Made by a program: the position numbers and the translations under genes. From a virus (lineage: Duplodnaviria > Caudoviricetes): DNA of 64,000 nucleotides. The notes under the pieces were generated by a model. That model worked only from the letters and a program-made list of their open reading frames with translations, did no database searches and was not told the DNA's origin. How positions within the stretch are numbered: position 1 is the stretch's first letter; each line of letters opens with the position of its first letter. Shown here piece by piece: positions 1 to 59,589 of this stretch. The stretch spans positions 27,878-91,877 of IMG/VR virus record IMGVR_UViG_3300046469_000011; one strand, written 5' to 3'.

Positions 1-217
1 CATCGGGTTGCTCGACCTGCATCATCGGCGCATCGTTCCCCAGAAGAACAATTGCGCCAGGAGGCTTGGCTGTCTCATCCCCATCCGCCACGGGGATATA
101 GCCCAGCGCCTCGTTTTTCAAATCGCCCGACTGAACCTGCGACTGAGCAGGCTGGGAGGGTGCTTCGACCTGCTGAGCCTGGGAATCCGGCGTGGGAGTT
201 GGATCTTCAACTGCCAT
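1..217 (-). CDS. Hypothetical Pro/Gln-rich acidic protein, partial (runs off window start)
   Basis: Translated by hand: AGGAG RBS, then ATG at 217, MAVEDPTPTPDSQAQQVEAPSQPAQ..., open to position 1; not in the ORF track. Confidence 0.7.
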   Translation of the reverse strand, partial: MAVEDPTPTPDSQAQQVEAPSQPAQSQVQSGDLKNEALGYIPVADGDETAKPPGAIVLLGNDAPMMQVEQPD

Positions 218-280
218 TTTTCTCCTATCTGAGAATTTTCTCGGTGGCCCGCGATTTTTCTACAGACCACCGAGAGGATT

Positions 281-691
281 TCACGGAACTGCGAAGTACG
301 GAACTTCGCTTTCGAATGGAAGCCCCATAGTCGCGCCCATCTGACCAGCGCCACCCATTCCGATGCTCGGGGTGCGACGACGCTCGCGGTAGAAGGCGTA
401 CTCGGGGTTGGTGATGTGGACGGCCCCGCGACCGCGAAGGCCACCGGGGAACTGAGAGCCACCTGCACCACCTAGCTCGTCCTGGGAGAGACGTGGAGCC
501 ACGTAGAGCAGATTCGTGCCCGGAATCGGCGTACCGATCTGAGGCAGAGGGGAGGTCCCCAACGTGCCCGGAGCCGAAAGGCCCTTGGCCGAGAAAACGC
601 GAATGTTGTTGGTTTCGCTGCCAGGCCGTTGGGCCACAATTTGACCAGTGGCCCAAGGCATTCCCCGGCGAGTTGCATCTCTTACTGCCAT
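281..691 (-). CDS. Hypothetical Gly/Pro-rich protein
   Basis: AGGAGG RBS 6 nt before ATG; co-directional with neighbours. Confidence 0.75.
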   Translation of the reverse strand: MAVRDATRRGMPWATGQIVAQRPGSETNNIRVFSAKGLSAPGTLGTSPLPQIGTPIPGTNLLYVAPRLSQDELGGAGGSQFPGGLRGRGAVHITNPEYAFYRERRRTPSIGMGGAGQMGATMGLPFESEVPYFAVP

Positions 692-708
692 GCTTTTCCT
701 CCTGTTGA

Positions 709-1080
709 TTATCCAGACCCGCCGTTGGCCTGGGCCGATTGAATAGTCTGTTGCCGGAGCTTCTCATTACGAGAATTCCAAGGCTCAAACCCAGCACCGG
801 GAATTTCTCCCTGATACTGAATTCCTGGCTGCTTGGGGCCATTTGGTGTCGTCCCAAGATTTCCGGTGTCAGCGTGCATGTCCCGAGGGATGGGGTATAC
901 ATAGCGGGGCTGTCCCGGTTTCCCGTCTCTGGTGTATTTGTCAGAGCCATAGGGAGCCTGGGCCAGATTAGCGTTGGTCGTTGGCAGGTTCGTCAACGGC
1001 GAGACGCCAGGAAAATCCCGCTGACCGGGGCTGGTGGGGTGTCCCCGATACTGAGCTACCTGAGAAGGGCTAAGCGCCAT
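709..1080 (-). CDS. Hypothetical Pro/Gly/Gln-rich, probably disordered protein
   Basis: 123-aa ORF tiling between neighbours on the operon strand. Confidence 0.7.
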   Translation of the reverse strand: MALSPSQVAQYRGHPTSPGQRDFPGVSPLTNLPTTNANLAQAPYGSDKYTRDGKPGQPRYVYPIPRDMHADTGNLGTTPNGPKQPGIQYQGEIPGAGFEPWNSRNEKLRQQTIQSAQANGGSG

Positions 1081-1103
1081 AAAAAATCACCGTAAGCCTA
1101 AGT

Positions 1104-1430
1104 CTACCGTTTCCGTCCCGCGCGTCCGCGAGATGATGAAGAAGCTCGGCCACGACCACCTTTCGCGGAAATCCCACGGGCGGGGCCGGAGAGCGCGACG
1201 ATCTTTTGAACAGAAGCCACACCGCGACGGCTAGCTGCTCTAGACTTAGAGCCACGCCCTGCCGGTAGGGGAGTGGAGGACATCGGAGGCCCCTGACCCG
1301 GCAGAAGCGTGGCCGCTGAGACAGGATCGACCGTGTAGCTCGCCAGGGCATTGCGAGCATCACTCACGGGCGCTTTTCCCTTATGGGTTCCCTGCCGCAG
1401 ACTGGAATTCTTCGCTTTACGACTTGCCAT
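1104..1430 (-). CDS. Small basic protein (array member 15)
   Basis: MASRKAKNSS...RGRAGRKR; TGATG coupling with upstream gene. Confidence 0.75.
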   Translation of the reverse strand: MASRKAKNSSLRQGTHKGKAPVSDARNALASYTVDPVSAATLLPGQGPPMSSTPLPAGRGSKSRAASRRGVASVQKIVALSGPARGISAKGGRGRASSSSRGRAGRKR

Positions 1431-1888
1431 CAGAAAGCCTTGTCGTAGACCCTTCTAATCGGGAGAACGTGATACAGACGGGGCGGATGCGGATTCAGAG
1501 CGCGAGGACGATGAATTTCCGTTCCGGTACGGCTCTTGACCGACCTGTTGACTGAATTCGCCTTTGGGGCGCTACGGCCAGCACGAATCACCGTGTTCCC
1601 GGCCCGAGTGGGCTGGCGAGCCTTCATCGTGGCCGGAGCCTGGCCGGATTTCGGATTGGATTTCGCTGCGCGGCCCTTGTGGGTATAGCGCTTCAATTCC
1701 TTGGTCGTGCGCTTGCCGACCACCCGCTCTTCCTTGCGCCGACGACGAGCGCGATTTCTCCGGGCACGGCGAGGTGTTTCCATCGTCGAGCGCCGAAGAT
1801 CATCACGCAGCGGCCTGACAATCAAATAATGCTCGCCAGGGAATTTATGCGTAAGCCGAGAAAGTGAATGACTGTGATGACGTGCCAT
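1430..1888 (-). CDS. Small basic Arg-rich protein (array member 14)
   Basis: MARHHSH...RRARRNRARRRRK; TAATG/TGATG coupling at both ends. Confidence 0.8.
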   Translation of the reverse strand: MARHHSHSLSRLTHKFPGEHYLIVRPLRDDLRRSTMETPRRARRNRARRRRKEERVVGKRTTKELKRYTHKGRAAKSNPKSGQAPATMKARQPTRAGNTVIRAGRSAPKANSVNRSVKSRTGTEIHRPRALNPHPPRLYHVLPIRRVYDKAF

Positions 1889-2046
1889 TATCGAGTGCCT
1901 TTCGGCTTGGTTTCTTTCGGGCCAAGACCAGGGCGCTTGTGCTTCATGGAAGTCGGAAGCCTGTCTGGATTGGTTTTTTTACGAGCAGTCAGAAGAGATC
2001 CGGGATCTCCATGCTTCACGGCAGGAATTATCGTTACGCGGGCCAT
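1888..2046 (-). CDS. Small basic protein, 52 aa (array member 13)
   Basis: Translated by hand: MARVTIIPAVKHGDPGSLLTARKKTNPDRLPTSMKHKRPGLGPKETKPKGTR; fills the gap exactly, TAATG overlaps on both sides; below ORF-track cutoff. Confidence 0.8.
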   Translation of the reverse strand: MARVTIIPAVKHGDPGSLLTARKKTNPDRLPTSMKHKRPGLGPKETKPKGTR

Positions 2047-2354
2047 TACCAATGCCGAGGATGCACAGTTTTATAGAATTCCAGCGTACTCAACGACATC
2101 CTTCCACCGGGAAGCCGCTTCCGCTCAGGCATCGTGACCTTCGTGCTGCCCTTATAGACCCGATGGCCCTTCCTGGACACCTTGAACCCCAAGGGCGACA
2201 GAGACTTGTGAAGCTGGTGGGGACTGATCCCTTGCCGACGTGCCTTCCTCACTATCGCTGAATGCTGAGGAACAGTCGGCCTCATCGCCTTGGCCGCTGG
2301 TGGAAAGCGATGAATGCTCGTCGAGCGTCCTTGCTTACGCTTGACCATCGCCAT
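2046..2354 (-). CDS. Small basic protein (array member 12)
   Basis: MAMVKRKQGR...; TAATG coupling on both sides. Confidence 0.8.
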   Translation of the reverse strand: MAMVKRKQGRSTSIHRFPPAAKAMRPTVPQHSAIVRKARRQGISPHQLHKSLSPLGFKVSRKGHRVYKGSTKVTMPERKRLPGGRMSLSTLEFYKTVHPRHW

Positions 2355-2572
2355 TAGATTTTCCTCAACCTCGGCTTATCCCGCACCGGAGCGCGTCCCT
2401 TATGGGCACCAAGCTTCAGGTGATGACTCGTAGCACCACCCAGGCCATGATGAGTCCTGGCTGGAAATCCACGGCTGGACATAACCCGCAGATCATTGAT
2501 CTTGGGTTTCATGCTGTACGCCTGAATCTGAGCGCGTCGCCTCGATCCAAGCCCTCTACGACCAATTCGCAT
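2354..2572 (-). CDS. Small basic protein (array member 11)
   Basis: MRIGRRGLGSRRR...HKGRAPVRDKPRLRKI. Confidence 0.75.
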   Translation of the reverse strand: MRIGRRGLGSRRRAQIQAYSMKPKINDLRVMSSRGFPARTHHGLGGATSHHLKLGAHKGRAPVRDKPRLRKI

Positions 2573-2577
2573 TCAGA

Positions 2578-2766
2578 TCACCCGGCAGGCCAGTGTGGCT
2601 CCGGCCCATGCGGGGTCGGAGAAATTGACGAAAGTGCAGCAGCGGTCAGTCGTGCATCGCCGCGAATACCCGTGCAGCGAATTCCGCCCGGATGATTCAC
2701 CACGACGCCCTTGCCCTGTCCGCGCCGCTTACCGCGACCGCGCTTTGCTGATTTTCTACGTGCCAT
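2578..2766 (-). CDS. Small basic protein (array member 10)
   Basis: MARRKSAKRGRGKRRG...; AGGAG RBS. Confidence 0.75.
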   Translation of the reverse strand: MARRKSAKRGRGKRRGQGKGVVVNHPGGIRCTGIRGDARLTAAALSSISPTPHGPEPHWPAG

Positions 2767-2774
2767 TTCTTCTC

Positions 2775-2939
2775 CTAGATTTTGAATCCTCTACGCCTCA
2801 TGTCTGCCCTTGTAGAAGGGTGGAGCTTCGGCGCAGCACCTAGTTTTTTCCAATCCCCAGAAGTCATGCGAACGCCTAAAGATTGAGTTGGATTTGTCCT
2901 CATATGGTGAGGACTCGGGACTGTCGCATGTCTAGCCAT
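2775..2939 (-). CDS. Small basic protein, 54 aa (array member 9)
   Basis: Translated by hand: MARHATVPSPHHMRTNPTQSLGVRMTSGDWKKLGAAPKLHPSTRADMRRRGFKI; 8-nt overlap with upstream gene; shares PTQSLGV with 3240..3437. Confidence 0.75.
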   Translation of the reverse strand: MARHATVPSPHHMRTNPTQSLGVRMTSGDWKKLGAAPKLHPSTRADMRRRGFKI

Positions 2940-3240
2940 TGATTTTTGATTTCAGAGAGCGGGCCTTGCGACCAATTTTGGTCTGCCCGCGACGCTTGAT
3001 TTTCGTCTTGGTCGGCTTCCACTCTTTCGGGTGATAAGTCTTTGTGACGGCATCAACCGCGCTACGGCGGGTGGGGAATGTGCCGACCATTTTGTAGCCG
3101 CCGTTGATGCGCTTGAAAGCATGGTGGACCTTGGGACCAGGAGATTCCACGCGACCAATTTCGTGTCCGCGCAGGTGAACCTCATGCGGGCCATAGCCGC
3201 CGTGAGTGAAAACCGTTGCTCCGCCATGCTTAGAAGCCAT
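2932..3240 (-). CDS. Small basic His/Lys-rich protein (array member 8)
   Basis: MASKHGG...; TGATG coupling. Confidence 0.8.
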   Translation of the reverse strand: MASKHGGATVFTHGGYGPHEVHLRGHEIGRVESPGPKVHHAFKRINGGYKMVGTFPTRRSAVDAVTKTYHPKEWKPTKTKIKRRGQTKIGRKARSLKSKING

Positions 3241-3437
3241 CAGACACCAAGAGATTGCGTTGGATGAGTGCGCTTCCGCGTCCGGGGCTTTCTGAATTTC
3301 CCCGCTGCGTGATCATCGTGGAATTTCAAGATGGGATCTACTCCATCGCTGATCTTGCGCGTCCGGCCATAACCAGGAAGAAGACGCTTCCTTGAATTAT
3401 CACCAGTGGTATTCACAATTCGACGAGTACGTGCCAT
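3240..3437 (-). CDS. Small basic protein (array member 7)
   Basis: MARTRR...RKPRTRKRTHPTQSLGV; TGATG coupling on both sides. Confidence 0.8.
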   Translation of the reverse strand: MARTRRIVNTTGDNSRKRLLPGYGRTRKISDGVDPILKFHDDHAAGKFRKPRTRKRTHPTQSLGV

Positions 3438-3769
3438 CAGCGCACCTTTGACCTATGGCCCTTGGGGGGTGTATAGGCCCGCAGAGAATCGGGAACTCCC
3501 ATTTTCTTTGGGCGCGGCGTAAGCCTGGCACCCGTGCCAGCGTGGAAAGTCCCTGTATGGTCGTGGAGCGTGTGAGCGCCACGCATCGAACCGATGAACG
3601 GCTCGTGATTTGGCCGAACACCCTTCGGTCCCAAAGTTTGATTGCGAGTCTTTCGGGGAGCTTTGGGAGTGGGAATTCCTTTACCCTTGCTTCCAGTCTT
3701 CACTGATGCGCCTATGCGAAGGCTCTGTTTCTTATTACGGCGACGAAGCTGACGATTAGTAAGGGCCAT
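3437..3769 (-). CDS. Small basic protein (array member 6)
   Basis: MALTNRQLRRRNKK...; TGATG coupling on both sides. Confidence 0.8.
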   Translation of the reverse strand: MALTNRQLRRRNKKQSLRIGASVKTGSKGKGIPTPKAPRKTRNQTLGPKGVRPNHEPFIGSMRGAHTLHDHTGTFHAGTGARLTPRPKKMGVPDSLRAYTPPKGHRSKVR

Positions 3770-3939
3770 CAGCGCTTTCTCCTTCTCCGGCGAGAACGAA
3801 TCGGTGAAATCACAACTTCGTTCCCTTGAGCGCCAAAGGAATGAACCGTGTTGATCTCGGGAGCGACCTTATTCGAGACGGTGTAAATATGAGGACGAAC
3901 GCCCATTGAGTCAGTGAGATGTCTACGCTTACCGTGCAT
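3769..3939 (-). CDS. Small basic protein, 56 aa (array member 5)
   Basis: Translated by hand: MHGKRRHLTDSMGVRPHIYTVSNKVAPEINTVHSFGAQGNEVVISPIRSRRRRRKR; fills the gap exactly with TGATG overlaps. Confidence 0.8.
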   Translation of the reverse strand: MHGKRRHLTDSMGVRPHIYTVSNKVAPEINTVHSFGAQGNEVVISPIRSRRRRRKR

Positions 3940-4325
3940 CACATTTTCTTCGACCTTCTGCCACCGCGAGGACGAAAGCCCGTCTTCTTGCGGTTGCGAG
4001 GGGATTCTCCTGGCTTGGACTGATCGACCCGAATAACCGCTTTGGGCTTGCGAGAAATTATGTGTTCCTCGGGGCCAAGACCGGGGCGCTGAGCGTGATC
4101 GTGAGCCGGAGGACGGTCAATATTTGATCCGCCTGTCGGCTTGGCAACGCCCTTGATGCCCCGCATGACGTTTTTCTGCTTGCGCGAAGTGCGCCAAGTG
4201 CCCGGAGAAGGACGGCGAGGACCGCCATATGGCTCCTTGGGAGTCGAACCAGGGATGTTCCGACCCGCATTCCCCTTCAAGCCGGGAACGCGAGGACCCT
4301 TCGCCTGGGATTTCCGCCGTGCCAT
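3939..4325 (-). CDS. Small basic Pro/Gly/Arg-rich protein (array member 4)
   Basis: MARRKSQAKGPR...RPRGGRRSKKM; start abuts the upstream stop. Confidence 0.8.
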   Translation of the reverse strand: MARRKSQAKGPRVPGLKGNAGRNIPGSTPKEPYGGPRRPSPGTWRTSRKQKNVMRGIKGVAKPTGGSNIDRPPAHDHAQRPGLGPEEHIISRKPKAVIRVDQSKPGESPRNRKKTGFRPRGGRRSKKM

Positions 4326-4556
4326 CTACTTCTTCTTTCGGGCAGGAGATTTTTTGGCCGCAGCCGAGTCCTTGCGGCGAGCCGCGTGCTTGGAAAAAGC
4401 ATGGGCCTGCTTGTCGGTCATTCCCTTACGCTTCAATTTGTTGTAGATCGTCTTCTGGGAATCCGACATGGAAACCCCGGCAGAGGGCTTTTTCGCTGTC
4501 GCCGGGGAGGAATTCTTGGCCTTGCGAGCCGTAGATTTGGGTTTGCGTGTGGTCAT
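4326..4556 (-). CDS. Small Lys/Ala-rich histone-H1-like protein (array member 3)
   Basis: MTTRKPKSTARKAK...AAAKKSPARKKK with a short helical core YNKLKRKGMTDKQAHAFS. Confidence 0.8.
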   Translation of the reverse strand: MTTRKPKSTARKAKNSSPATAKKPSAGVSMSDSQKTIYNKLKRKGMTDKQAHAFSKHAARRKDSAAAKKSPARKKK

Positions 4557-4574
4557 ATCCCTTGTAGAATCCGG

Positions 4575-4619
4575 TCCCGACCCCGGAGGGGAGTCGCCAA
4601 ACTACCTCCGAGGCCGGGA
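4575..4619 (-). terminator. Strong intergenic hairpin (terminator or processing/stability element)
   Basis: 15-bp stem TCCCGGCCTCGGAGG/CCTCCGGGGTCGGGA with G-U pairs on the - strand; no U tail. Confidence 0.5.
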
Positions 4620-4640
4620 ATCCGAACTCTTCATCCGCTC

Positions 4641-4844
4641 CTAGAGAGCGTCCGCGCGACGGCGGCCACGACGATGCCCGCCATGACGACGCCGACCCAG
4701 GCCGGGGTGACGGCGGACGTGGGCACGAACCCGCGTCCGGCGACCCGTGGCCGTGATCCGGGTATGCGACCGCACCCGATGATGCGTGGGATGCGGATGC
4801 CGCCCGTGACGACGACGGCGGTGTCCAACACGACGACGAGCCAT
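4641..4844 (-). CDS. Protamine-like Arg/His-rich protein (array member 2)
   Basis: AAGGAGG RBS; 67 aa with 25 Arg, 11 His and 1 acidic residue (counted). Confidence 0.85.
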   Translation of the reverse strand: MARRRVGHRRRRHGRHPHPTHHRVRSHTRITATGRRTRVRAHVRRHPGLGRRRHGGHRRGRRRADAL

Positions 4845-4880
4845 GTGTGGATCATCCTCCTTGGTTGTTTGCAATTCCGT

Positions 4881-5204
4881 TCATCGCCTACGGGGATTCC
4901 TCCGGCGATGCGCCCTCACCCGGACCCTCCTGCCAGTAGACGTGATGCGCGTGTGCCCGGAGACACGGTGCGTACCCCGCTTCGAGGCAGAACGGCGGCG
5001 GGTGGACGTAGACCTGGACCGACTCGAACTACCCAGAGGCTTCCATCCTCGACGCGCCATGCGGGCAAAATTCGCTTGGGCACGGGTTCGGGGATTTTTG
5101 CTCCGAAGACCCTGCGAAACCGAAATGCCCTTTCTGGTGAAAGCGCCTCGGTGAGCCGGGTTTATGTTGATGCCTGATCGAGATCTGCGTCTGCGACGAG
5201 CCAT
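4881..5204 (-). CDS. Protamine-like Arg/Ser-rich protein (array member 1)
   Basis: MARRRRRSRS...; 107 aa with no Asp or Glu; shares the HRVxxHTRITxTGRRxRVRAHxRR motif with the next gene. Confidence 0.85.
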   Translation of the reverse strand: MARRRRRSRSGININPAHRGAFTRKGISVSQGLRSKNPRTRAQANFARMARRGWKPLGSSSRSRSTSTRRRSASKRGTHRVSGHTRITSTGRRVRVRAHRRRNPRRR

Positions 5205-5264
5205 TCGGTTCCCGTGGGATTTGAACGGATGTCAGGCCGCTTTTGCTGACCCCTTACACGGATA

Positions 5265-5291
5265 ACTATAGCCGTTTTGGGCAGATGTCAA
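5265..5291 (-). promoter_or_regulatory. Candidate sigma70-type promoter for the basic-protein array
   Basis: TTGACA (5291-5286), 15-nt spacer (short), TATAGT (5270-5265). Confidence 0.45.
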
Positions 5292-5334
5292 GCACTTCTG
5301 TAGGCGGCTCTGTAGACGGCCCACTTTTGCGGCT

Positions 5335-5748
5335 CTAGTCTTCGTCTCGCAAAAGCCCAGGAAGCCTGGATCTACGGCGTTTTTGCTCACCCTTGGTGGG
5401 TACGATGTAGCGGCTCTGCTCCGACTCCAAAATTCGCACGAAATCTGAGGCTCTACAGACCACTACTGTCTCGGTCCCACCATCCAGGGCTATAGCTATA
5501 GCGGGTATGGAATTATCACCATTCTCGCGTATTGCATTATCAGCCTCACGTAGCAATTCTTTAGATATTGAATGGCTCTCTTTCTCCGTCCACTTGCAGG
5601 AGAAGGTGAAGGTGCCATCGCCTACGTCAAGCTTGGCGTACCAGACGTTCCCAGAGCCTTTCTGCGGCTCTACACCGAACAGAGCGGCCCAGAACCGCTC
5701 GAACCTGCGCCCTGATTTTTGCGGGGACTCTCCGGGGCGCTTTCGCAT
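5335..5748 (-). CDS. PD-(D/E)XK nuclease / Holliday junction resolvase-like protein
   Basis: GRRFER...GSGN...KLDV...FSCKWT...IPAIAI pattern of phage resolvase-like proteins. Confidence 0.55.
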   Translation of the reverse strand: MRKRPGESPQKSGRRFERFWAALFGVEPQKGSGNVWYAKLDVGDGTFTFSCKWTEKESHSISKELLREADNAIRENGDNSIPAIAIALDGGTETVVVCRASDFVRILESEQSRYIVPTKGEQKRRRSRLPGLLRDED

Positions 5749-5760
5749 TCTAGGATCATA

Positions 5761-7593
5761 TCATGGTTGGGGAACTTTGCCTGAAGTCCAGCCGCCAGCC
5801 GGTGCAGCAACAAATTTTGAATTGGCTATAGATGCGGCGAAAGCAGATTGCGAAGCGGATGAGCTTTCAATAGCGAAGGTGTCAGTGGCCCCCGAGCCGT
5901 CCGTGTAGGAACCATTGTTGTTGTTGTACCAAAGAGCCGCTTTGATCTGCGGGAAAGTCTTATTAGCGATTTGAGCAAAAGTATCGGTAATCCATGAAGC
6001 CTTCCCGCTAGACCCATACGAATCTTCACTGGCAAACTCGCAAATCACAATTGGCTTATTGGGCGAGAGAGACGCAAATCCGTTCATCGAATGGGTATAG
6101 AGATTGACGAACGACTCGCTGGTGGACCCGGTGTTGTAGCCATCGATCCCCAGCCAATCCACATAAGCATCGCCTGGATACCAGGGGGTCGGATCAACCG
6201 ACACGGTGCCTGAGCCAGTCCAAATATTAGGACACCAGACCCAGGTGATATTTGTCGCTCCTTGAGCATCACAGCGACTCTTGAATCTTTGCCACGCCGC
6301 CACATATTGTGCTGCCGTGGTGCCGTACTCTGTTTGCCACGTATATCCCGAGGACGTGCCCCAATTTCCGTTCATTTCCCAGCACCAACGGAACATGAAT
6401 GGCTTGCCCCAGGAGGCAACCTGTTGCGCCCAGGCATCAATTTGAGAATCCCAGGAACCAGCGGCAATCGAGGCCATAGTCGCGCCTCCCTCCAAGCCGC
6501 TCGTCATCAAGCAAAAAGCGCCCCGAGAAAAGGCATGATCCATTGGAGAGCTACTCCACGTCACAAAATTTTCATGAACGGCGATAGCTGCGACTCTCTT
6601 GCCTGCGTGCGACTCGAACAAATTCCAAGTAGCATCATCTGGTGTTCCGGGCCAAGGCGGATTTGCATACCCAGCATTTGTGCCGCCGTAGACAGACCCG
6701 AGAATGCTGGCACCCCAATAAATGCGCGTAGTGGCGACAAGGCTCGTATCGGTTGCCGCATCGTGAACAGACACGCTATCCGAGGCAGATAGATGATAAA
6801 TCCTAATTCCGCCCGAGAACGCGACTGAATCAAAAACAGAAACCCGGTCGGAAGCGGACATGGAGAAACTGTTGATTCCTCCCGATCCAGTTCTTGTGAC
6901 TGAATCGAAAACTGACACCGAATCCAACGCGCCAACGAAAGAACTACCTGTTCCGCCGCCAGTAGTGCCGCCACCCGTCCCACCTGTGCCTCCCGAACCA
7001 CCCCCGGTGCCTCCTGGACCGCCCTCAATGCCTCCACCTGACGTGGGGCCTCCGGTAACGCTGGTGCCCACACCCTGGCCGCTCTGCCAAAGCTTCTCTC
7101 CGTATACACCATCTTCTAGGCCCCACTGACCGTAGGCCGGTGGCTTAGAGGTGTAACGCGGCCAAAGCTGGCCGTAGGGGACCAGCAAAGTGGGATCAAA
7201 AATAAACGGAGATCCCCAGCCGATGGGCCAGAGTTGCCCGTAGCGGGCATTCGAGACAGCTACATCGATTCCAAGCTGGAAAAGCTTGGCTGTTGAAAAT
7301 TCTGCGCCAGCGACATCAATGCCGAATTGAAAAACAAAGGCGCGAGAAAGCCCTGTTGACGAACCAGCATCACCGAACGGAATTGAATCGTATGCAGCAA
7401 AGAATACGGGTCCAGGCTGAGCGGAATCGGAAATTGCAAGATCATCGCTTGCATAAAGGTGCGCTGCAATAGCATCGTAAATTGCGATGGAATCAGCAGC
7501 CGTCCTTGAATAACTGACTGGCCCTCCGGGTGCCGAAGTTTCTCCGCCACCATAAGGAGAGCCACCATAAGGACGTGATCCGTAACCGGCCAC
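5761..7593 (-). CDS. Virion-associated protein with C-terminal glycoside hydrolase family 26 domain
   Basis: FRWCWEMNG (acid/base), YPGDAYVDWLGIDGYN, KPIVICEF (nucleophile); N-terminal SxSDSV repeats and Gly-rich linker. Confidence 0.8.
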   Translation of the reverse strand: MAGYGSRPYGGSPYGGGETSAPGGPVSYSRTAADSIAIYDAIAAHLYASDDLAISDSAQPGPVFFAAYDSIPFGDAGSSTGLSRAFVFQFGIDVAGAEFSTAKLFQLGIDVAVSNARYGQLWPIGWGSPFIFDPTLLVPYGQLWPRYTSKPPAYGQWGLEDGVYGEKLWQSGQGVGTSVTGGPTSGGGIEGGPGGTGGGSGGTGGTGGGTTGGGTGSSFVGALDSVSVFDSVTRTGSGGINSFSMSASDRVSVFDSVAFSGGIRIYHLSASDSVSVHDAATDTSLVATTRIYWGASILGSVYGGTNAGYANPPWPGTPDDATWNLFESHAGKRVAAIAVHENFVTWSSSPMDHAFSRGAFCLMTSGLEGGATMASIAAGSWDSQIDAWAQQVASWGKPFMFRWCWEMNGNWGTSSGYTWQTEYGTTAAQYVAAWQRFKSRCDAQGATNITWVWCPNIWTGSGTVSVDPTPWYPGDAYVDWLGIDGYNTGSTSESFVNLYTHSMNGFASLSPNKPIVICEFASEDSYGSSGKASWITDTFAQIANKTFPQIKAALWYNNNNGSYTDGSGATDTFAIESSSASQSAFAASIANSKFVAAPAGGWTSGKVPQP

Positions 7594-21324: not shown

Positions 21325-22353
21325 TCAGACTGCCGCCTTCTTTTCAGCCCATCTTGCCCTGACGCGAAGACGAGCAATCTCGGCATCGTAATCCTTGCGG
21401 ATCATCTTGGCGCGGTTCACGCCATTGGACTCAGATAGCTGTGTGCAGCCCTCTCGAAAGTCAAGCTGGCACGTCTTCTTGAAGGGACAATACTGACAGG
21501 GCTTCTGGGACCAGCGCCAGCCATTCGGATGCCCGAATTTTGATGAACGCTTGCCGGGATTCAGTTCGGGGATGAAGTCTTCCTCGAACCAGACCCGCCA
21601 GCGCTTCAGAGTTTCCAGGCCAGCCACCCAGAAATTCTCATCATGATCAACGCGAAACTCAGCCGTGTCCAGAGGATTATCTCGGCTGACATAATAGATC
21701 GTTCCGTGCGTGCAGAGATCTAGATCGCTCAACCACAGACCCAGCTTTTGGTAGTGGCGCACGAAGGCGGTTTCTACCTTGACTTGAGAAACATGCTCAG
21801 GGAATGGACCACGACCAATCTGCATTTCTTGGATTACTTCTGCCTTGCGTTCCTTGATTTCGACGGGAAGCGGTTTGTTGTTGAGAAGGATCACCGCATC
21901 GACTGATCCCGTCAGCCAAGCCTCGGGGTATTCAAACCCCGTCTGCTTATAAGGATCAGCCGACGACAGAAGCATTCCGGAATTTTGGAAGGCTTCAACA
22001 ATCGTCACCTCAGCCTGTTTCCCCGAATCAGCCGTCTGGCGCAGAAGACGCGACATCGGCTCAGACGATGGAAAATCCATCATGCGATAAAGCGCCTGGC
22101 GAGGGCAAGCCATCGGATTGTTGCCAGGGAATTGGCTGCCATGAAAAGAAACATGCCAGGGATTCCCGTGCGGAGAATCATCAGATTGCTCACGCAGGAT
22201 CTTCTCTTCAGAAATTCTGAACGCCTGATCGACGAGTGGCTCGACCGTGCGAATCAACTGAAGGCGCGTGAAGAATTCAGCGCGGGTCAGCTTTCGCAAG
22301 CCCAGCATCGACTTCAGTTGCAAGCCGAGTATGTCTTGCCGGGTGTAATTCAT
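21325..22353 (-). CDS. Cas4-like PD-(D/E)XK exonuclease
   Basis: CPRQ...GSVDAV...VEIKE...H..Q...YYVSRD...CQYCPFKKTC. Confidence 0.8.
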   Translation of the reverse strand: MNYTRQDILGLQLKSMLGLRKLTRAEFFTRLQLIRTVEPLVDQAFRISEEKILREQSDDSPHGNPWHVSFHGSQFPGNNPMACPRQALYRMMDFPSSEPMSRLLRQTADSGKQAEVTIVEAFQNSGMLLSSADPYKQTGFEYPEAWLTGSVDAVILLNNKPLPVEIKERKAEVIQEMQIGRGPFPEHVSQVKVETAFVRHYQKLGLWLSDLDLCTHGTIYYVSRDNPLDTAEFRVDHDENFWVAGLETLKRWRVWFEEDFIPELNPGKRSSKFGHPNGWRWSQKPCQYCPFKKTCQLDFREGCTQLSESNGVNRAKMIRKDYDAEIARLRVRARWAEKKAAV

Positions 22354-52682: not shown

Positions 52683-53738
52683 CTAAGCGACCGTCGCGCT
52701 GAGGAAGCACTCCGGATGAATAATCCGGACGATGCGAGCCGCAGCTTCGCGGAGGTAGCGGTTCTTGGTCATGTTGTCGAGGATCACCTCAGAGGTCGGA
52801 CCCTGCTGAATTTCCGTCTCGTTGTAATCCGTTCCGATTTCCACCTGACCATTGAGGGTGTCGGCGATGGCTTCACCCTCGATCAGATACTCGGTCGTCA
52901 ACAGAACCTTGTAGTTCGGCAGGTAGCGGGTGTGCGCCGCCTCAGCCCGGTCTGCACCGGAAGCCATCGGGCGGAAACCGGCGTCATGGACGACGAATTC
53001 CGTACCTTCGGCAAGAAGCTGGGCAACCTGCTCCAACGTGGCCCTGAACGGCGTGCCGGTCGGGATGTTGAAATAGGTCTTGAGCTTCTGATTGTTGAGG
53101 ATCAGCTTGGCTGTCTTGGACGTGAGATGAATTCTCGTACCCAGGAAACCGGCATCGTTGGCTAGCTGAAGCTGCCAGCCTTCGAGGTCGGCCACCGGAT
53201 CAGAATTCACCACGTCACTCCACAGCGTAAGCGGCTGCGGCATATGTCCGGGCAGGAATCCGTAGTCGATGAAGATCTGCGAATTCGTGCGCGGATAGGT
53301 GATCGTCAGCGATCCGTTGACGAACGCCTGCCAGCGCATCCACTCCGTCAGACGCTCAAGGCGACGACGAAGAACCTGACCGCGCGACACGACATCCAGG
53401 CCCTCGGCATTTCGGATGAATTCGTCATTGGAATTCAGCCTCATCCATTGCTCTGAATTGATCCGGTGCATCTCTTCGAGATTCGCCATCTCAATCAGGG
53501 CCTCACGCCGCTCCGTGACTGGCATCTCAACCAGAGCAGGCATAGCGTTGGGGGCCTTGAACTGCCCGATACCGAACGAATACTGACGCCCGATATCCAT
53601 TCGAGCCATGCGGCTCTCCTGGTCAACCATTGGAGCAATTGCTTCCCCAAGGAATGGGGCCTGCTCCAAAGCGGTGTCCACCGGCTGATTCACCAGTTCG
53701 GTGAGAACCGCCTGATCGTAAATATCAAAAATCGGCAC
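52683..53738 (-). CDS. Major capsid protein (lambda gpE-like)
   Basis: RLTEWMRWQA..NG...IDYG...W....SDP..DL..W pattern; 351 aa; AGGAGG RBS. Confidence 0.88.
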   Translation of the reverse strand: MPIFDIYDQAVLTELVNQPVDTALEQAPFLGEAIAPMVDQESRMARMDIGRQYSFGIGQFKAPNAMPALVEMPVTERREALIEMANLEEMHRINSEQWMRLNSNDEFIRNAEGLDVVSRGQVLRRRLERLTEWMRWQAFVNGSLTITYPRTNSQIFIDYGFLPGHMPQPLTLWSDVVNSDPVADLEGWQLQLANDAGFLGTRIHLTSKTAKLILNNQKLKTYFNIPTGTPFRATLEQVAQLLAEGTEFVVHDAGFRPMASGADRAEAAHTRYLPNYKVLLTTEYLIEGEAIADTLNGQVEIGTDYNETEIQQGPTSEVILDNMTKNRYLREAAARIVRIIHPECFLSATVA

Positions 53739-58397: not shown

Positions 58398-58609
58398 GCA
58401 AAAAGCGCCAGCACGATCAAGACCGAAATGAACGTGGCGAACATGACTTCGGCGAAGAGAATCGTCGCGCCCACGGCGAGGATGATGATCACCCAGGAAA
58501 CCGCTTTCATTCCGGATTCCAGGCCTGTTGACCCGTACATCCGCTTGCGGTCCTGCGGTGTCATCATCCGCACCTTGGGCTTGGCGGGCTTGCCGGGGAT
58601 TAGAGTCAT
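58385..58609 (-). CDS. Small membrane protein
   Basis: Two C-terminal TM segments; ATGA overlap. Confidence 0.6.
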   Translation of the reverse strand: MTLIPGKPAKPKVRMMTPQDRKRMYGSTGLESGMKAVSWVIIILAVGATILFAEVMFATFISVLIVLALFAWWL

Positions 58610-59589
58610 CCCAGGACTACCCGGCGCTCGGGGGGCAGATTGCGGTTCCAGTAAGCCACCAACTTTTGGGACATTTCATAGTAGTTGCGGACATAGCCGT
58701 ACTGAGCAAAGGGGAACCGCCCGATCTTCCGAATCCAGCGGTCACGGTCGTTCCGATGGGGTTCGCGCTCAAGGAACACCGCACGAGCCACAATCGCCAC
58801 GGCCCGCAGATTGCTGGGTGCAAACGCATCGGGATTGTTGACTTTCGATCCCAGAGCGGAGATCAGAACGGCAAGCTCGTCCGCATCCTTCTTATTGAAT
58901 TTGGCCCGCTCGGTATCCAGCGCCGTGGCGCTCATGTGCTTGGACTTGGCCGCGTAGACACGCAGGATGTTGAAAGCCGTCGATGCCGACATGCGCGTCT
59001 TGGAATTTCCGCTCTGACCTGACGCGATCAGATTCGACCAGGGATGATCCGTGGACGTGACGGCATCCTGAATGTATTCCTCGATGTTGCCGTTGGAATT
59101 CAGGATCAGCACGTTCTTGGAAACCCGAGTTGCCTTGGCCTGAAGTGCGAACAGATGCCGCGCTTCATCCTCGGTTCGCTTGGTGACCAGCACCCGCATG
59201 GGAACACGAGCAATCACCGCGCCACCGGCCCGATGCTGGCCGTCCGTGTAAAACAGATGGTCGCCAGTCCAAGAAACTTCGATAACAGGAACGAGATTCA
59301 GGTAATTGTCACGATGCTCGGCAATCCAGCGCCCGAAGTCGCGTACCTTTTCTGCCCGTAGGTGCCGCTGGTATCCAACAATGTCGCCCTGCACGCGCTG
59401 GATGGGAATCCGAATAGCGAGAAGCTGTTCGGGGGCGAGGATGTGAACTCCCTCGCGCCGCGTCACGGCAGCGGAATTCATCCCGTCCACAACCGAGACG
59501 TGAACCTTGCGGTCGCCGCCCATTCCTCCGGGATGAACGGTTTTGAGAACTTCTAATAGGGTGGGGAACTGCGATGCGGCTTTCGCCAT
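58606..59589 (-). CDS. DGQHR-domain (DndB/ParB-Srx-like) protein
   Basis: GYQR.L...YTDGQHR; AAAAGGAG RBS. Confidence 0.75.
   Translation of the reverse strand: MAKAASQFPTLLEVLKTVHPGGMGGDRKVHVSVVDGMNSAAVTRREGVHILAPEQLLAIRIPIQRVQGDIVGYQRHLRAEKVRDFGRWIAEHRDNYLNLVPVIEVSWTGDHLFYTDGQHRAGGAVIARVPMRVLVTKRTEDEARHLFALQAKATRVSKNVLILNSNGNIEEYIQDAVTSTDHPWSNLIASGQSGNSKTRMSASTAFNILRVYAAKSKHMSATALDTERAKFNKKDADELAVLISALGSKVNNPDAFAPSNLRAVAIVARAVFLEREPHRNDRDRWIRKIGRFPFAQYGYVRNYYEMSQKLVAYWNRNLPPERRVVLG

What the first reader, a model, noticed from the sequence alone, without database searches (positions are those of the whole stretch)
1104..5204. Operon of 15 consecutive protamine/histone-like basic microproteins in a phage
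Seen: 15 back-to-back - strand ORFs of 52-152 aa, all strongly enriched in Arg/Lys (often His, Pro, Gly) and poor in acidic residues. Most begin MA(R). Three (1888-2046, 2775-2939, 3769-3939) are missing from the ORF track but fill the gaps exactly. Member 2 has 25 Arg + 11 His in 67 aa; member 1 (MARRRRRSRS...) has no Asp or Glu. A candidate promoter lies upstream. Established: Arg-rich DNA-condensing core proteins are known from sperm (protamines), baculovirus (P6.9) and adenovirus (pVII/Mu), whereas tailed phages usually neutralise packaged DNA with polyamines/cations. Inference: this is a dedicated multi-component nucleic-acid-condensing system. It could be a protamine-like virion core, a coat shielding injected DNA from restriction/CRISPR, a host nucleoid or ribosome takeover cocktail, or a condensate scaffold. 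I know of no described phage array of this size.
Basis: partly seen in the sequence, partly recalled or inferred. Interest (0 to 1): 0.93.

Follow-up and report, generated by a model that had tools for sequence, protein, structure and literature searches.

The report
Conserved hyper-basic small-protein operon in phage
An uncultured 92-kb tailed phage and at least seven metagenomic relatives carry a tightly coupled operon of 5 to 15 real, selected genes for very basic, mostly disordered small proteins. One of them shares a module with a crassvirus protein that is packed in the virion, so they are most likely DNA-associated virion cargo, but this is untested.

Summary
Fifteen ATG-started minus-strand ORFs (52-152 aa, pI 11.2-12, net charge +9 to +36) tile 97% of 1104-5204, and eight junctions are one-base stop/start overlaps.

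They are real genes:
- dN/dS is 0.07-0.27 for most alignable orthologue pairs.
- Synonymous-codon usage matches that of bona fide phage genes.
- Seven related metagenomic phage contigs carry the same module in the same order between the same flanking genes. It runs from a Holliday-junction resolvase, through 5-15 basic genes, to two conserved Pro/Gly-rich proteins.

The proteins are predicted to be largely disordered. They are built from short motifs that recur in different members. Five window members have no detectable relatives.

None matches Pfam, protamines, histone-like proteins or ribosomal proteins. However, the N-terminal module of member 1 is homologous to a segment of crAss001 cargo protein gp45. 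The same module is a stand-alone 71-aa protein encoded between portal and capsid genes in other crassviruses.

A promoter-like site, unique in this genome and conserved in relatives, precedes the array. A strong hairpin follows member 2.

Best reading (about 0.4): DNA-associated internal virion or ejected proteins, analogous to T4 internal proteins. "Protamine-like full condensation" is not supported. This scan has noted similar basic arrays in other uncultured phages.

The parts
5335..5748 (-). Holliday-junction resolvase-like gene. It is the conserved upstream boundary of the module.
   Evidence: phrog_2002, E 1.4e-13. Homologues at 55-72% identity sit directly upstream of basic arrays in relatives.
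5265..5291 (-). Promoter-like site TTGACA-N15-TATAGT, followed by a conserved leader.
   Evidence: Read from the sequence. It is the only match of at least 11/12 to this pattern in the 92-kb genome, and one of two best sigma-70-like sites. The hexamers, spacing and downstream leader recur in L007 and L009, and partly in L004 and L008.
4881..5204 (-). Member 1 (107 aa, net +36). It joins an N-terminal module shared with crassvirus cargo gp45 to a C-terminal Arg/His hairpin module.
   Evidence: Orthologue in L009: 83% aa but 69% nt identity, dN/dS 0.07. Profile hit to PDB 7QOG gp45 residues 373-424. Direct E 4e-4. hhalign probability 92% to the stand-alone crassvirus protein. The AF2 model gives one helix at 38-52 and a hairpin at 84-96; the rest is low confidence.
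4641..4844 (-). Member 2 (67 aa, 25 Arg, 11 His). It is a paralogue of the hairpin module of member 1, and a strong AAGGAGG lies upstream.
   Evidence: 20/26 residues are identical to member 1 while the DNA is 58% identical, with 16 synonymous and 6 non-synonymous codon differences. Orthologue in L009, dN/dS 0.08.
4563..4633 (-). Strong RNA hairpin in the 84-nt gap after member 2. It has no U-run. It may be an attenuator or a stabiliser.
   Evidence: Free energy -45.8 kcal/mol, z -3.3. A hairpin of different sequence occupies the same position in L009.
4326..4556 (-). Member 3 (76 aa, Lys-rich), with a conserved central helical-looking core.
   Evidence: Orthologues in L009, L007 and L015. dN/dS 0.24.
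3939..4325 (-). Member 4 (128 aa, Pro/Gly/Arg-rich). No orthologue was found.
   Evidence: Highest synonymous-codon score in the array, 0.158. It shares a 21-aa motif with member 13.
3769..3939 (-). Member 5 (56 aa). It is a short basic paralogue of the N-terminal region of ORF17.
   Evidence: Orthologues in L007 (E 3e-13), L004 and L008. Aligned with the ORF17 family.
3437..3769 (-). Member 6 (110 aa).
   Evidence: Orthologues in L009 and L008. Its frame scores best of the six frames.
3240..3437 (-). Member 7 (65 aa). It ends in the recurring His-Pro-Thr...Leu-Gly motif.
   Evidence: The motif is shared with members 5 and 9 and with relatives. The copies differ at third codon positions.
2932..3240 (-). 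Member 8 (102 aa). An orphan.
   Evidence: It matched only itself among 5.8 billion proteins. Synonymous-codon score 0.152.
2775..2939 (-). Member 9 (54 aa). The least certain gene.
   Evidence: Synonymous-codon score -0.14. It shares a 10-aa motif with member 7 and an L009 gene.
2578..2766 (-). Member 10 (62 aa), with a conserved C-terminal motif.
   Evidence: Orthologues in L008, L009, L003, L007, L015 and L016. dN/dS about 0.27.
2354..2572 (-). Member 11 (72 aa). It carries the His-Lys-Gly-basic motif at its C-terminus.
   Evidence: The motif is shared with members 14 and 15 and with relatives.
2046..2354 (-). Member 12 (102 aa). An orphan.
   Evidence: An exhaustive phmmer search of 1.84 billion representatives gave one weak repeat hit, E 3e-4.
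1888..2046 (-). Member 13 (52 aa). No orthologue was found.
   Evidence: It shares a motif with member 4. Its start overlaps the preceding stop by one base.
1430..1888 (-). Member 14 (152 aa, net +33).
   Evidence: Full-length orthologues in L008 and L009, 48% identity, dN/dS 0.15-0.24. The ESM Atlas model has pLDDT 0.54 and pTM 0.20.
1104..1430 (-). Member 15 (108 aa). It is the last basic gene in every relative.
   Evidence: Orthologues in all seven related loci. dN/dS 0.2-0.64.
709..1080 (-). ORF16. A conserved Pro/Gly-rich 123-aa protein that always follows the array.
   Evidence: 72-77% identity in relatives. 38 family members, all unnamed. AF2 pLDDT 61, with only a C-terminal helix confident.
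281..691 (-). ORF17. A conserved 136-aa protein that is homologous to array members of the member-5 type.
   Evidence: 58-60% identity in relatives. Joint alignment with member-5 family proteins.

Best explanation
The array is a fast-evolving transcription unit encoding abundant, intrinsically disordered, polycationic proteins that associate with the phage's own DNA. They are most likely loaded into the virion as internal 'cargo' proteins, sit on or next to the packaged genome, and leave with it at infection.

Shown here:
- The genes are real and under purifying selection.
- They are translationally coupled.
- They are conserved as a module next to packaging and tail-fibre genes in at least eight phage loci, counting the window.
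- They are predicted to be disordered and are strongly cationic.
- Member 1 shares a roughly 50-aa module with crassvirus cargo protein gp45 and with a stand-alone small protein encoded between portal and capsid genes in other crassviruses.

Inferred:
- The proteins bind DNA.
- They are in the particle.
- The recurring short motifs are docking or processing signals for loading.
- The promoter plus the hairpin after member 2 make members 1-2 the most abundant.
- Rapid turnover of members reflects an arms race with host defences met at DNA entry, as for T4 internal protein I.

By charge arithmetic they could neutralise only a modest share of the genome. The role would be local, such as DNA ends, the portal region or shielding at entry, and not a protamine-like core.
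For: Real genes:
- Frame-specific conservation: member 1 is 83% aa against 69% nt identical, with 61 third-position and 11 second-position differences, dN/dS 0.07. Member 2 gives 0.08, member 14 gives 0.15-0.24, and the neighbouring resolvase gives 0.14.
- The paralogous motif of members 1 and 2 shows 16 synonymous against 6 non-synonymous codon changes.
- The pooled synonymous-codon score is 0.076. Long genes give 0.053 +/- 0.066 and off-frame stretches give -0.067 +/- 0.082.

Module conservation: resolvase, then basic genes, then ORF16, then ORF17, in L003, L004, L007, L008, L009, L015 and L016.

Physical nature:
- All 15 lie on the disordered side of the charge-hydropathy boundary, with aliphatic and aromatic residues at only 9-25%.
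- Models are of low confidence.

Cargo link:
- The family profile hits PDB 7QOG chain M, gp45 residues 373-424, E 0.003.
- The L007 orthologue hits 44 Crassvirales records at 45-53% identity over 85% of its length, E 1e-7 to 1e-6.
- hhalign probability is 92%, E 7e-7, to the 71-aa stand-alone protein of phage cr1_1, which lies between portal and major capsid genes.
- gp45 was detected in virions. Its residues 425-552 bind the portal inside the capsid and 214-245 line the tail barrel (PMC10172136).

Context: the terminase, portal and resolvase (a packaging-linked function in T4, from my own knowledge) and the tail fibres are on the same strand directly upstream.

Evolution rate: the array evolves much faster than the portal (72% identity) or ORF16 (about 75%). 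Five members have no relatives. The T4 internal-protein locus behaves the same way (my own knowledge).
Against: - There is no direct evidence of virion location or of DNA binding.
- The homologous gp45 segment is unresolved in the cryo-EM maps and its own role is unknown. Only member 1 carries it.
- The major capsid gene lies about 48 kb away (52683-53738), so the array is not in the head-gene block.
- No common N-terminal targeting peptide or recognisable prohead protease site was found.
- The array has a host-type (sigma-70-like) promoter of its own, which could equally mean early expression in the cell.
- Two fibre modules flank the array, which could point to a tail or envelope role.
Confidence: 0.42

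Rival explanations
1. These are intracellular, non-packaged nucleic-acid binders. The proteins are made in the infected cell and coat phage DNA or RNA, the host nucleoid or ribosomes. They would condense replicated DNA before packaging, shut off the host, or seed a condensate, without entering the particle.
For: The array has its own conserved sigma-70-like promoter, one of the two best in the genome. That fits transcription by host polymerase independent of the late genes. Polycationic disordered composition fits RNA or DNA binding and phase separation. No targeting peptide or protease site was seen. The resolvase next door acts on intracellular DNA.
Against: The one detectable homology is to a virion cargo protein and to a gene in a crassvirus head module. 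The array sits inside the structural and packaging strand block and not among early genes. The 15-nt promoter spacer is atypical for strong host promoters.
Confidence: 0.27
2. These are tail, fibre or envelope-contact accessory proteins. Together with the Pro/Gly-rich ORF16 and ORF17, the basic proteins would be extended 'glue' or assembly factors of the fibre apparatus, or would bind anionic cell-wall polymers during adsorption.
For: The array is always flanked by tail-fibre-type genes: BclA_C and GH26 proteins upstream, and Mtd_N or collagen-like proteins downstream in relatives. Member-5-type proteins are homologous to ORF17. ORF16 and ORF17 are highly conserved and predicted to be mostly extended.
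Against: Fifteen exposed polycations would bind DNA and debris indiscriminately. Rapid gain and loss of members does not fit stoichiometric structural parts. Nothing links ORF16 or ORF17 to fibres except position.
Confidence: 0.12
3. These are cationic membrane-active lysis peptides, like the phage phiKT gp28-type outer-membrane disruptor (my own knowledge).
For: They are small and very cationic. In L003 and L004, membrane proteins lie inside or beside the array, and in L004 a lysozyme gene lies nearby.
Against: Hydrophobic content is very low and no amphipathic helices are predicted. Those membrane proteins have no homologue in this genome. The number and size of members far exceed any known lysis cassette.
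Confidence: 0.05
4. This is a non-coding region or an artefact of reading the wrong frame of other genes.
For: High-GC DNA gives long chance ORFs. A 263-aa plus-strand ORF (4386-5177) overlaps members 1-3. Simple codon scores for members 1, 2, 10 and 11 are no better than some other frames.
Against: No Rfam family matches.
Confidence: 0.02

Closest known systems
Phage T4 internal proteins IPI, IPII and IPIII, and their hypervariable locus in T4-like phages (my own knowledge; reviewed in PMC6071114)
   Same: They are small basic proteins encoded in a row and made in large numbers. They are packed with the DNA and injected with it. Locus content changes quickly between related phages, and at least one (IPI*) counters a host restriction system.
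   Different: There is no sequence similarity. T4 proteins share an N-terminal capsid-targeting peptide cut by the prohead protease, and no such common peptide is seen here. T4 has three to a few members, this array up to 15. These proteins are far more basic and disordered. Virion location is unproven here.
Crassvirus cargo protein 1 (crAss001 gp45; PDB 7QOG; PMC10172136), and the stand-alone 71-aa protein of Suoliviridae such as phage cr1_1
   Same: A module of about 50 aa, basic and ending in a helix, is shared with member 1 and its orthologues. gp45 is a virion-internal, ejected protein. The stand-alone form is encoded between portal and capsid genes.
   Different: gp45 is 842 aa, with a transmembrane helix, a tail-barrel helix and a portal-binding domain, none of which is present here. 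The shared segment is not resolved in the structure and has no assigned role. The other 14 members show no similarity.
Protamines, baculovirus P6.9 and adenovirus pVII/Mu
   Same: They are polycationic, largely disordered, and associated (there) with packaged dsDNA.
   Different: Arg is 16.5% overall here, against roughly half or more in protamines. There is no homology. Those are one or two proteins at very high copy that neutralise most of the genome. Tailed phages package by motor into a preformed shell.
Other arrays of small basic genes noted by this scan in uncultured phages (e1-4091414, e1-5360767, e1-3423917)
   Same: They are chains of tightly coupled genes for tiny, very basic proteins with shared short peptides. 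The purine-rich codons of basic C-terminal tails double as the next gene's ribosome-binding site, as seen here upstream of members 2, 6, 10 and 12.
   Different: They are on different genomes and no sequence relation was tested. Those notes are AI notes and not published work. Here motifs are scattered along the proteins and are not a single common tail.

Membership tests
T4-type internal proteins | A shared N-terminal capsid-targeting sequence removed by the prohead protease | tested here: not met
   N-termini share only Met-Ala-(Arg/Lys). All-against-all comparison finds no common N-terminal peptide. No prohead protease was identified among the genes scanned.
T4-type internal proteins | Small basic proteins from a locus whose content varies between related phages | tested here: met
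   pI 11.2-12. There are 5-15 members in eight loci, and five window members have no orthologue.
T4-type internal proteins | Present inside the capsid and injected with the DNA | not testable with these tools
   This needs virion proteomics or cryo-EM of a cultured relative.
Crassvirus cargo protein gp45 family | Sequence homology along the protein | tested here: not met
   Only gp45 residues 373-424 match, and only member 1 and its orthologues. It is a shared module and not family membership.
Crassvirus cargo protein gp45 family | The portal-binding domain (425-552) and N-terminal transmembrane helix | tested here: not met
   No match outside 373-424. Array proteins have 9-25% hydrophobic residues and no hydrophobic stretch.
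Protamine / P6.9 / adenovirus pVII-Mu type core proteins | Homology to, or Arg content typical of, these families | tested here: not met
   No Pfam hit at E up to 1 for any member. Arg is 16.5% overall, with a maximum of 37% in member 2.
Protamine / P6.9 / adenovirus pVII-Mu type core proteins | Condenses the packaged genome | not testable with these tools
   Charge arithmetic only: +293 per set against about 184,000 phosphates of a 92-kb genome.
Bacterial histone-like proteins (HU, H-NS, Hc1) and ribosomal proteins (bS21, bL34 and others) | Match to the family profile | tested here: not met
   No Pfam or PHROG family at significant E. No PDB sequence match for five family profiles other than gp45.
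Cationic lysis peptides (phiKT gp28 type) | An amphipathic cationic helix encoded in the lysis cassette | tested here: not met
   Low hydrophobicity and mostly coil models. No lysis gene adjoins the array in this genome.

The most novel reading that the evidence does not exclude
A clade of uncultured tailed phages packages a variable set of up to 15 disordered polycationic proteins with its genome. The set is assembled by shuffling short peptide motifs, and one part of it descends from a cargo module also used by crassviruses. It would act as a diversifying 'escort' that shields or manipulates the DNA at entry. That would make protein-coated genome delivery in tailed phages far more elaborate and widespread than the T4 internal proteins suggest.
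Probability: 0.35. Interest if true: 0.85.

Novelty: new variant of a known kind. Interest (0 to 1): 0.68.

Why it matters
Tailed phages are generally thought to pack nearly naked DNA neutralised by small cations. Protein cargo is known in only a few models: T4 internal proteins, T7 and P22 ejection proteins, and crassvirus cargo. This finding would add four things.

- **More protein chemistry travelling with phage DNA.** A conserved, rapidly diversifying operon of up to 15 polycationic disordered proteins would show much more of it than assumed.
- **A testable role for a crassvirus segment.** It would give a concrete hypothesis for the unresolved gp45 segment and its stand-alone crassvirus homologues, which are currently annotated 'transcriptional regulator'.
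- **A defined test set.** It offers proteins for testing DNA shielding against restriction or CRISPR at entry.

Tried and rejected
- **DNA similarity to cultured phages.** None was found for the array.
- **tblastn against 50,697 phage records.** Members 1, 14, the member-3 orthologue, ORF16 and ORF17 gave no match.
- **IMG/VR scans.** Scans with the resolvase, member 8 and the ORF16 alignment gave no relatives.
- **Prokaryote species genomes.** The scan found no prophage copy.
- **JGI metagenome scan.** It gave only two short fragments.
- **More distant resolvase homologues.** P0027, P0034 and P0043 sit in other contexts without arrays.
- **ESM Atlas look-ups.** They gave only weak leads. A fusellovirus VP2 capsid/DNA-binding cluster scored 0.78, below the usable mark. 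Nothing was found for member 14.
- **AlphaFold models.** The models of member 1 (pLDDT 63) and ORF16 (pLDDT 61) were too uncertain for fold searches, so none was run.
- **Complex prediction.** Member 1 with the portal protein returned 'no answer'. This is not evidence either way.
- **Rfam.** No RNA family was found in 1-6000.
- **Stop-codon reassignment joining the ORFs.** Considered and dropped, because neighbours are in different frames.
- **The long plus-strand ORF 4386-5177 as the real gene.** Considered and dropped because of the frame-specific substitution pattern.

Full report
**What is there.** The window is the last 64 kb of a 91.9-kb IMG/VR virus record judged about 90% complete. It is a tailed phage. 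It has a large terminase, a Mu-type portal, a major head protein, a 2027-aa tape-measure-like protein, a DnaE-type polymerase and helicases, almost all on the minus strand.

Every one has pI 11.2-12.0, and net charges run from +9 to +36, +293 in 1313 residues overall. The composition is Arg 16.5%, Gly 10%, Lys 9.5%, His 5.5% and Asp+Glu 3.7%.

Eight of the 14 junctions share a single base between the stop and the next ATG, which is the classic arrangement for translational coupling. These ORFs cover 97% of the region. Dinucleotide shuffles give 51 +/- 8% and the antisense strand gives 39%.

**Are they genes?** Yes, for the array as a whole.

- *Paralogue test.* Members 1 and 2 share a 26-residue Arg/His motif. 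Twenty of the 26 residues are identical although the DNA is only 58% identical. Sixteen of 22 differing codons are synonymous, and no other frame keeps the similarity.
- *Orthologue test.* Orthologues found in related contigs give the same picture. Member 1 is 83% identical in protein but 69% in DNA, with 61 third-position against 11 second-position differences, dN/dS 0.07. Member 2 gives 0.08, members 3 and 5 about 0.24, member 10 about 0.27, member 14 gives 0.15-0.24 and member 15 gives 0.2-0.64. The adjacent resolvase gives 0.14.
- *Codon test.* A score that uses only synonymous codon choice, and so is blind to the odd amino-acid composition, is 0.076 for the pooled array. Pieces of long genes give 0.053 +/- 0.066 and open off-frame stretches give -0.067 +/- 0.082. 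Fourteen of the 15 members are positive.

Only 2775-2939 is doubtful. Members 4, 7, 8, 12 and 13 have no detectable relatives anywhere. They rest on codon usage and coupling alone.

**The module in other phages.** The resolvase-like gene just upstream (5335-5748, phrog_2002) and the Pro/Gly-rich gene just downstream (ORF16, 709-1080) have many metagenomic homologues.

Seven contigs that could be fetched (L003, L004, L007, L008, L009, L015, L016) all show the same order:
1. resolvase;
2. a run of 5-10 small genes with pI 11-12;
3. ORF16;
4. ORF17;
5. fibre-type genes.

A core order recurs: the member-1 type, then the member-3 type, member-5 type and member-10 type, then either the member-14 type or another basic family absent from the window, then the member-15 type. 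The window has the largest set.

The array diverges much faster than its surroundings. Between the window and L007 the portal is 72% identical and ORF16 about 75%. Shared array members are 39-60% identical over parts of their length, and many are not alignable at all. No copy was found in 185,579 prokaryote species genomes or in cultured phages.

**What the proteins look like.** None matches Pfam, and PHROGs gives nothing significant. All 15 fall far on the disordered side of the charge-hydropathy boundary, with 9-25% aliphatic and aromatic residues.

An alignment-based AlphaFold model of member 1 has mean pLDDT 63. It has one confident helix (38-52) and a moderately confident beta-hairpin (84-96). 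The ESM Atlas model of member 14 has pLDDT 0.54.

The members are tied together by short peptide motifs that appear at different positions in different proteins. There are three main ones:
- the Arg/His hairpin, in members 1 and 2;
- a His-Lys-Gly-basic motif preceded by Asn-Ser-x-Leu, in members 11, 14 and 15 and, in relatives, at the N-terminus of the member-10 family;
- a basic-His-Pro-Thr-x-Ser-Leu-Gly motif, at the C-terminal end of member 7, near the N-terminus of members 5 and 9, and at both ends of one L007 protein.

Copies of this last motif differ at third codon positions, so it is kept as peptide and not as a DNA signal. Member-5-type proteins align with the N-terminal half of ORF17, and the motif corresponds to a conserved stretch of ORF17. 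Part of the array therefore arose by duplication and truncation of its conserved neighbour.

**The one link to something known.** A profile of the member-1 family hits a single PDB sequence: cargo protein 1 (gp45) of Bacteroides phage crAss001, residues 373-424, E 0.003.
- The 65-aa L007 orthologue matches 44 Crassvirales genomes by tblastn at 45-53% identity over 85% of its length, E 1e-7 to 1e-6, always inside the gp45-type gene or a small gene.
- The window's own member 1 aligns to the gp45 piece at 13/27 identities, E 4e-4 (alignment).
- In Suoliviridae such as phage cr1_1 the module is a stand-alone 71-aa basic protein. It lies between the portal and major capsid genes and is annotated 'transcriptional regulator'. 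The family profile matches it with hhalign probability 92%, E 7e-7.

According to Bayfield et al. 2023 (PMC10172136), gp45 is found in virions by mass spectrometry. Its residues 214-245 line the tail barrel and residues 425-552 form a domain bound to the portal wing inside the capsid. The protein is thought to be ejected ahead of the DNA. The segment homologous to member 1 lies immediately before the portal-bound domain and was not resolved. This is a shared module and not family membership, and it concerns one member only.

**Regulation.** The 130-nt gap upstream of member 1 holds TTGACA-N15-TATAGT (5291-5265). It is the only match of at least 11/12 to that pattern in the 92-kb genome, and one of only five sigma-70-like sites at 10/12 or better. 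The hexamers, the unusual 15-nt spacing and a following leader recur upstream of the arrays in L007 and L009, and in part in L004 and L008.

The 84-nt gap after member 2 folds into a strong hairpin without a U-run (-45.8 kcal/mol, z -3.3). L009 has a different hairpin at the same place. I infer a dedicated transcription unit in which members 1-2 are made in excess of the rest, and the remaining members are kept in step by coupling.

Several basic C-terminal tails are encoded by purine-rich codons that also provide the Shine-Dalgarno sequence of the next gene (upstream sequences). This was also noted for other arrays in this scan.

**Most likely mechanism.** Polycationic, disordered, abundant proteins encoded beside terminase, portal, a junction resolvase and fibres, one of them sharing a module with a virion cargo protein, are best read as DNA-associated internal proteins. 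They would be loaded into the particle and delivered with the genome.

Their fast turnover resembles the T4 internal-protein locus, where at least one member blocks a restriction system at entry (my own knowledge). The recurring motifs would then be docking or processing signals.

The charge budget argues against a protamine-like core. One copy of each protein offsets 0.16% of the phosphates of a 92-kb genome, so even 10% neutralisation would need about 60 copies of all 15, roughly 9 MDa. That is my own arithmetic.

I put this reading at about 0.42. The main rival, at 0.27, is action inside the cell without packaging, which the host-type promoter makes quite possible. A fibre- or envelope-associated role together with ORF16/ORF17 gets 0.12, lysis peptides 0.05 and artefact 0.02.

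**Known or new?** The papers searched describe protamine-like proteins for eukaryotic viruses, and internal proteins for T4, but no phage array of this kind.

This scan's own notes list several other chains of small basic genes in uncultured phages. Those are unverified AI notes, but they suggest the phenomenon is wider than this clade.

I class the finding as a new variant of a known kind (phage internal or cargo proteins), with function unproven.

**Limits.**
- There are no expression or proteomic data.
- The host is unknown. An Rpf-type transglycosylase in this genome and in L004 hints at Actinobacteria, but I did not test this.
- Five members have no comparative support.
- The complex prediction gave no answer.

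Noticed in passing
window 709-1080 and 281-691: Two conserved Pro/Gly-rich proteins (ORF16 and ORF17) always close the array. ORF16 has 38 unnamed relatives at 46-80% identity and is predicted to be mostly extended. ORF17 is homologous to the member-5 type of array protein. Their function is unknown.
   Followed up: partly
L012:2953-3168 (uncultured phage cr1_1) and 20 other Suoliviridae records: The stand-alone 71-aa protein annotated 'transcriptional regulator' is the same module as residues 373-424 of crAss001 cargo protein gp45. It lies between the portal and major capsid genes, so the annotation may be wrong.
   Followed up: partly
L007:8482-8733, L004:12511-12756, L016:1513-1740, L015:7336-7530: Small acidic proteins (64-83 aa, pI 4.1-4.5) are interspersed in or next to the basic arrays of four relatives, but not in the window. 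They could be chaperones or counter-ions for the basic proteins.
   Followed up: no
L003:10745-11939 and L004:13790-15041: A pair of genes sits inside the array in L003 and after it in L004. One encodes a protein with an N-terminal membrane helix plus a coiled coil, the other a membrane-anchored collagen-like protein. Neither has a homologue in this genome.
   Followed up: partly
G000:C1:17351-25555 (2.3 kb before the window start), minus strand: A 2734-aa protein lies downstream in the same strand block and hits only phrog_12240 (unknown function) in nine repeated stretches. Another first-stage note describes about 100 short repeats.
   Followed up: no
window 59668 (minus strand): This is the only other near-consensus sigma-70-like site in the genome, TTGACA-N18-TATGAT, upstream of the 327-aa gene 58606-59589.
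   Followed up: no
window 21325-22353: A Cas4-like / PD-(D/E)XK exonuclease gene (phrog_1706, E 5e-12) lies in the replication block.
   Followed up: no
window 4386-5177, plus strand: A 263-aa antisense ORF overlaps members 1-3. Greedy longest-ORF calling picks it instead of the three real genes, which shows how such arrays get mis-annotated.
   Followed up: yes
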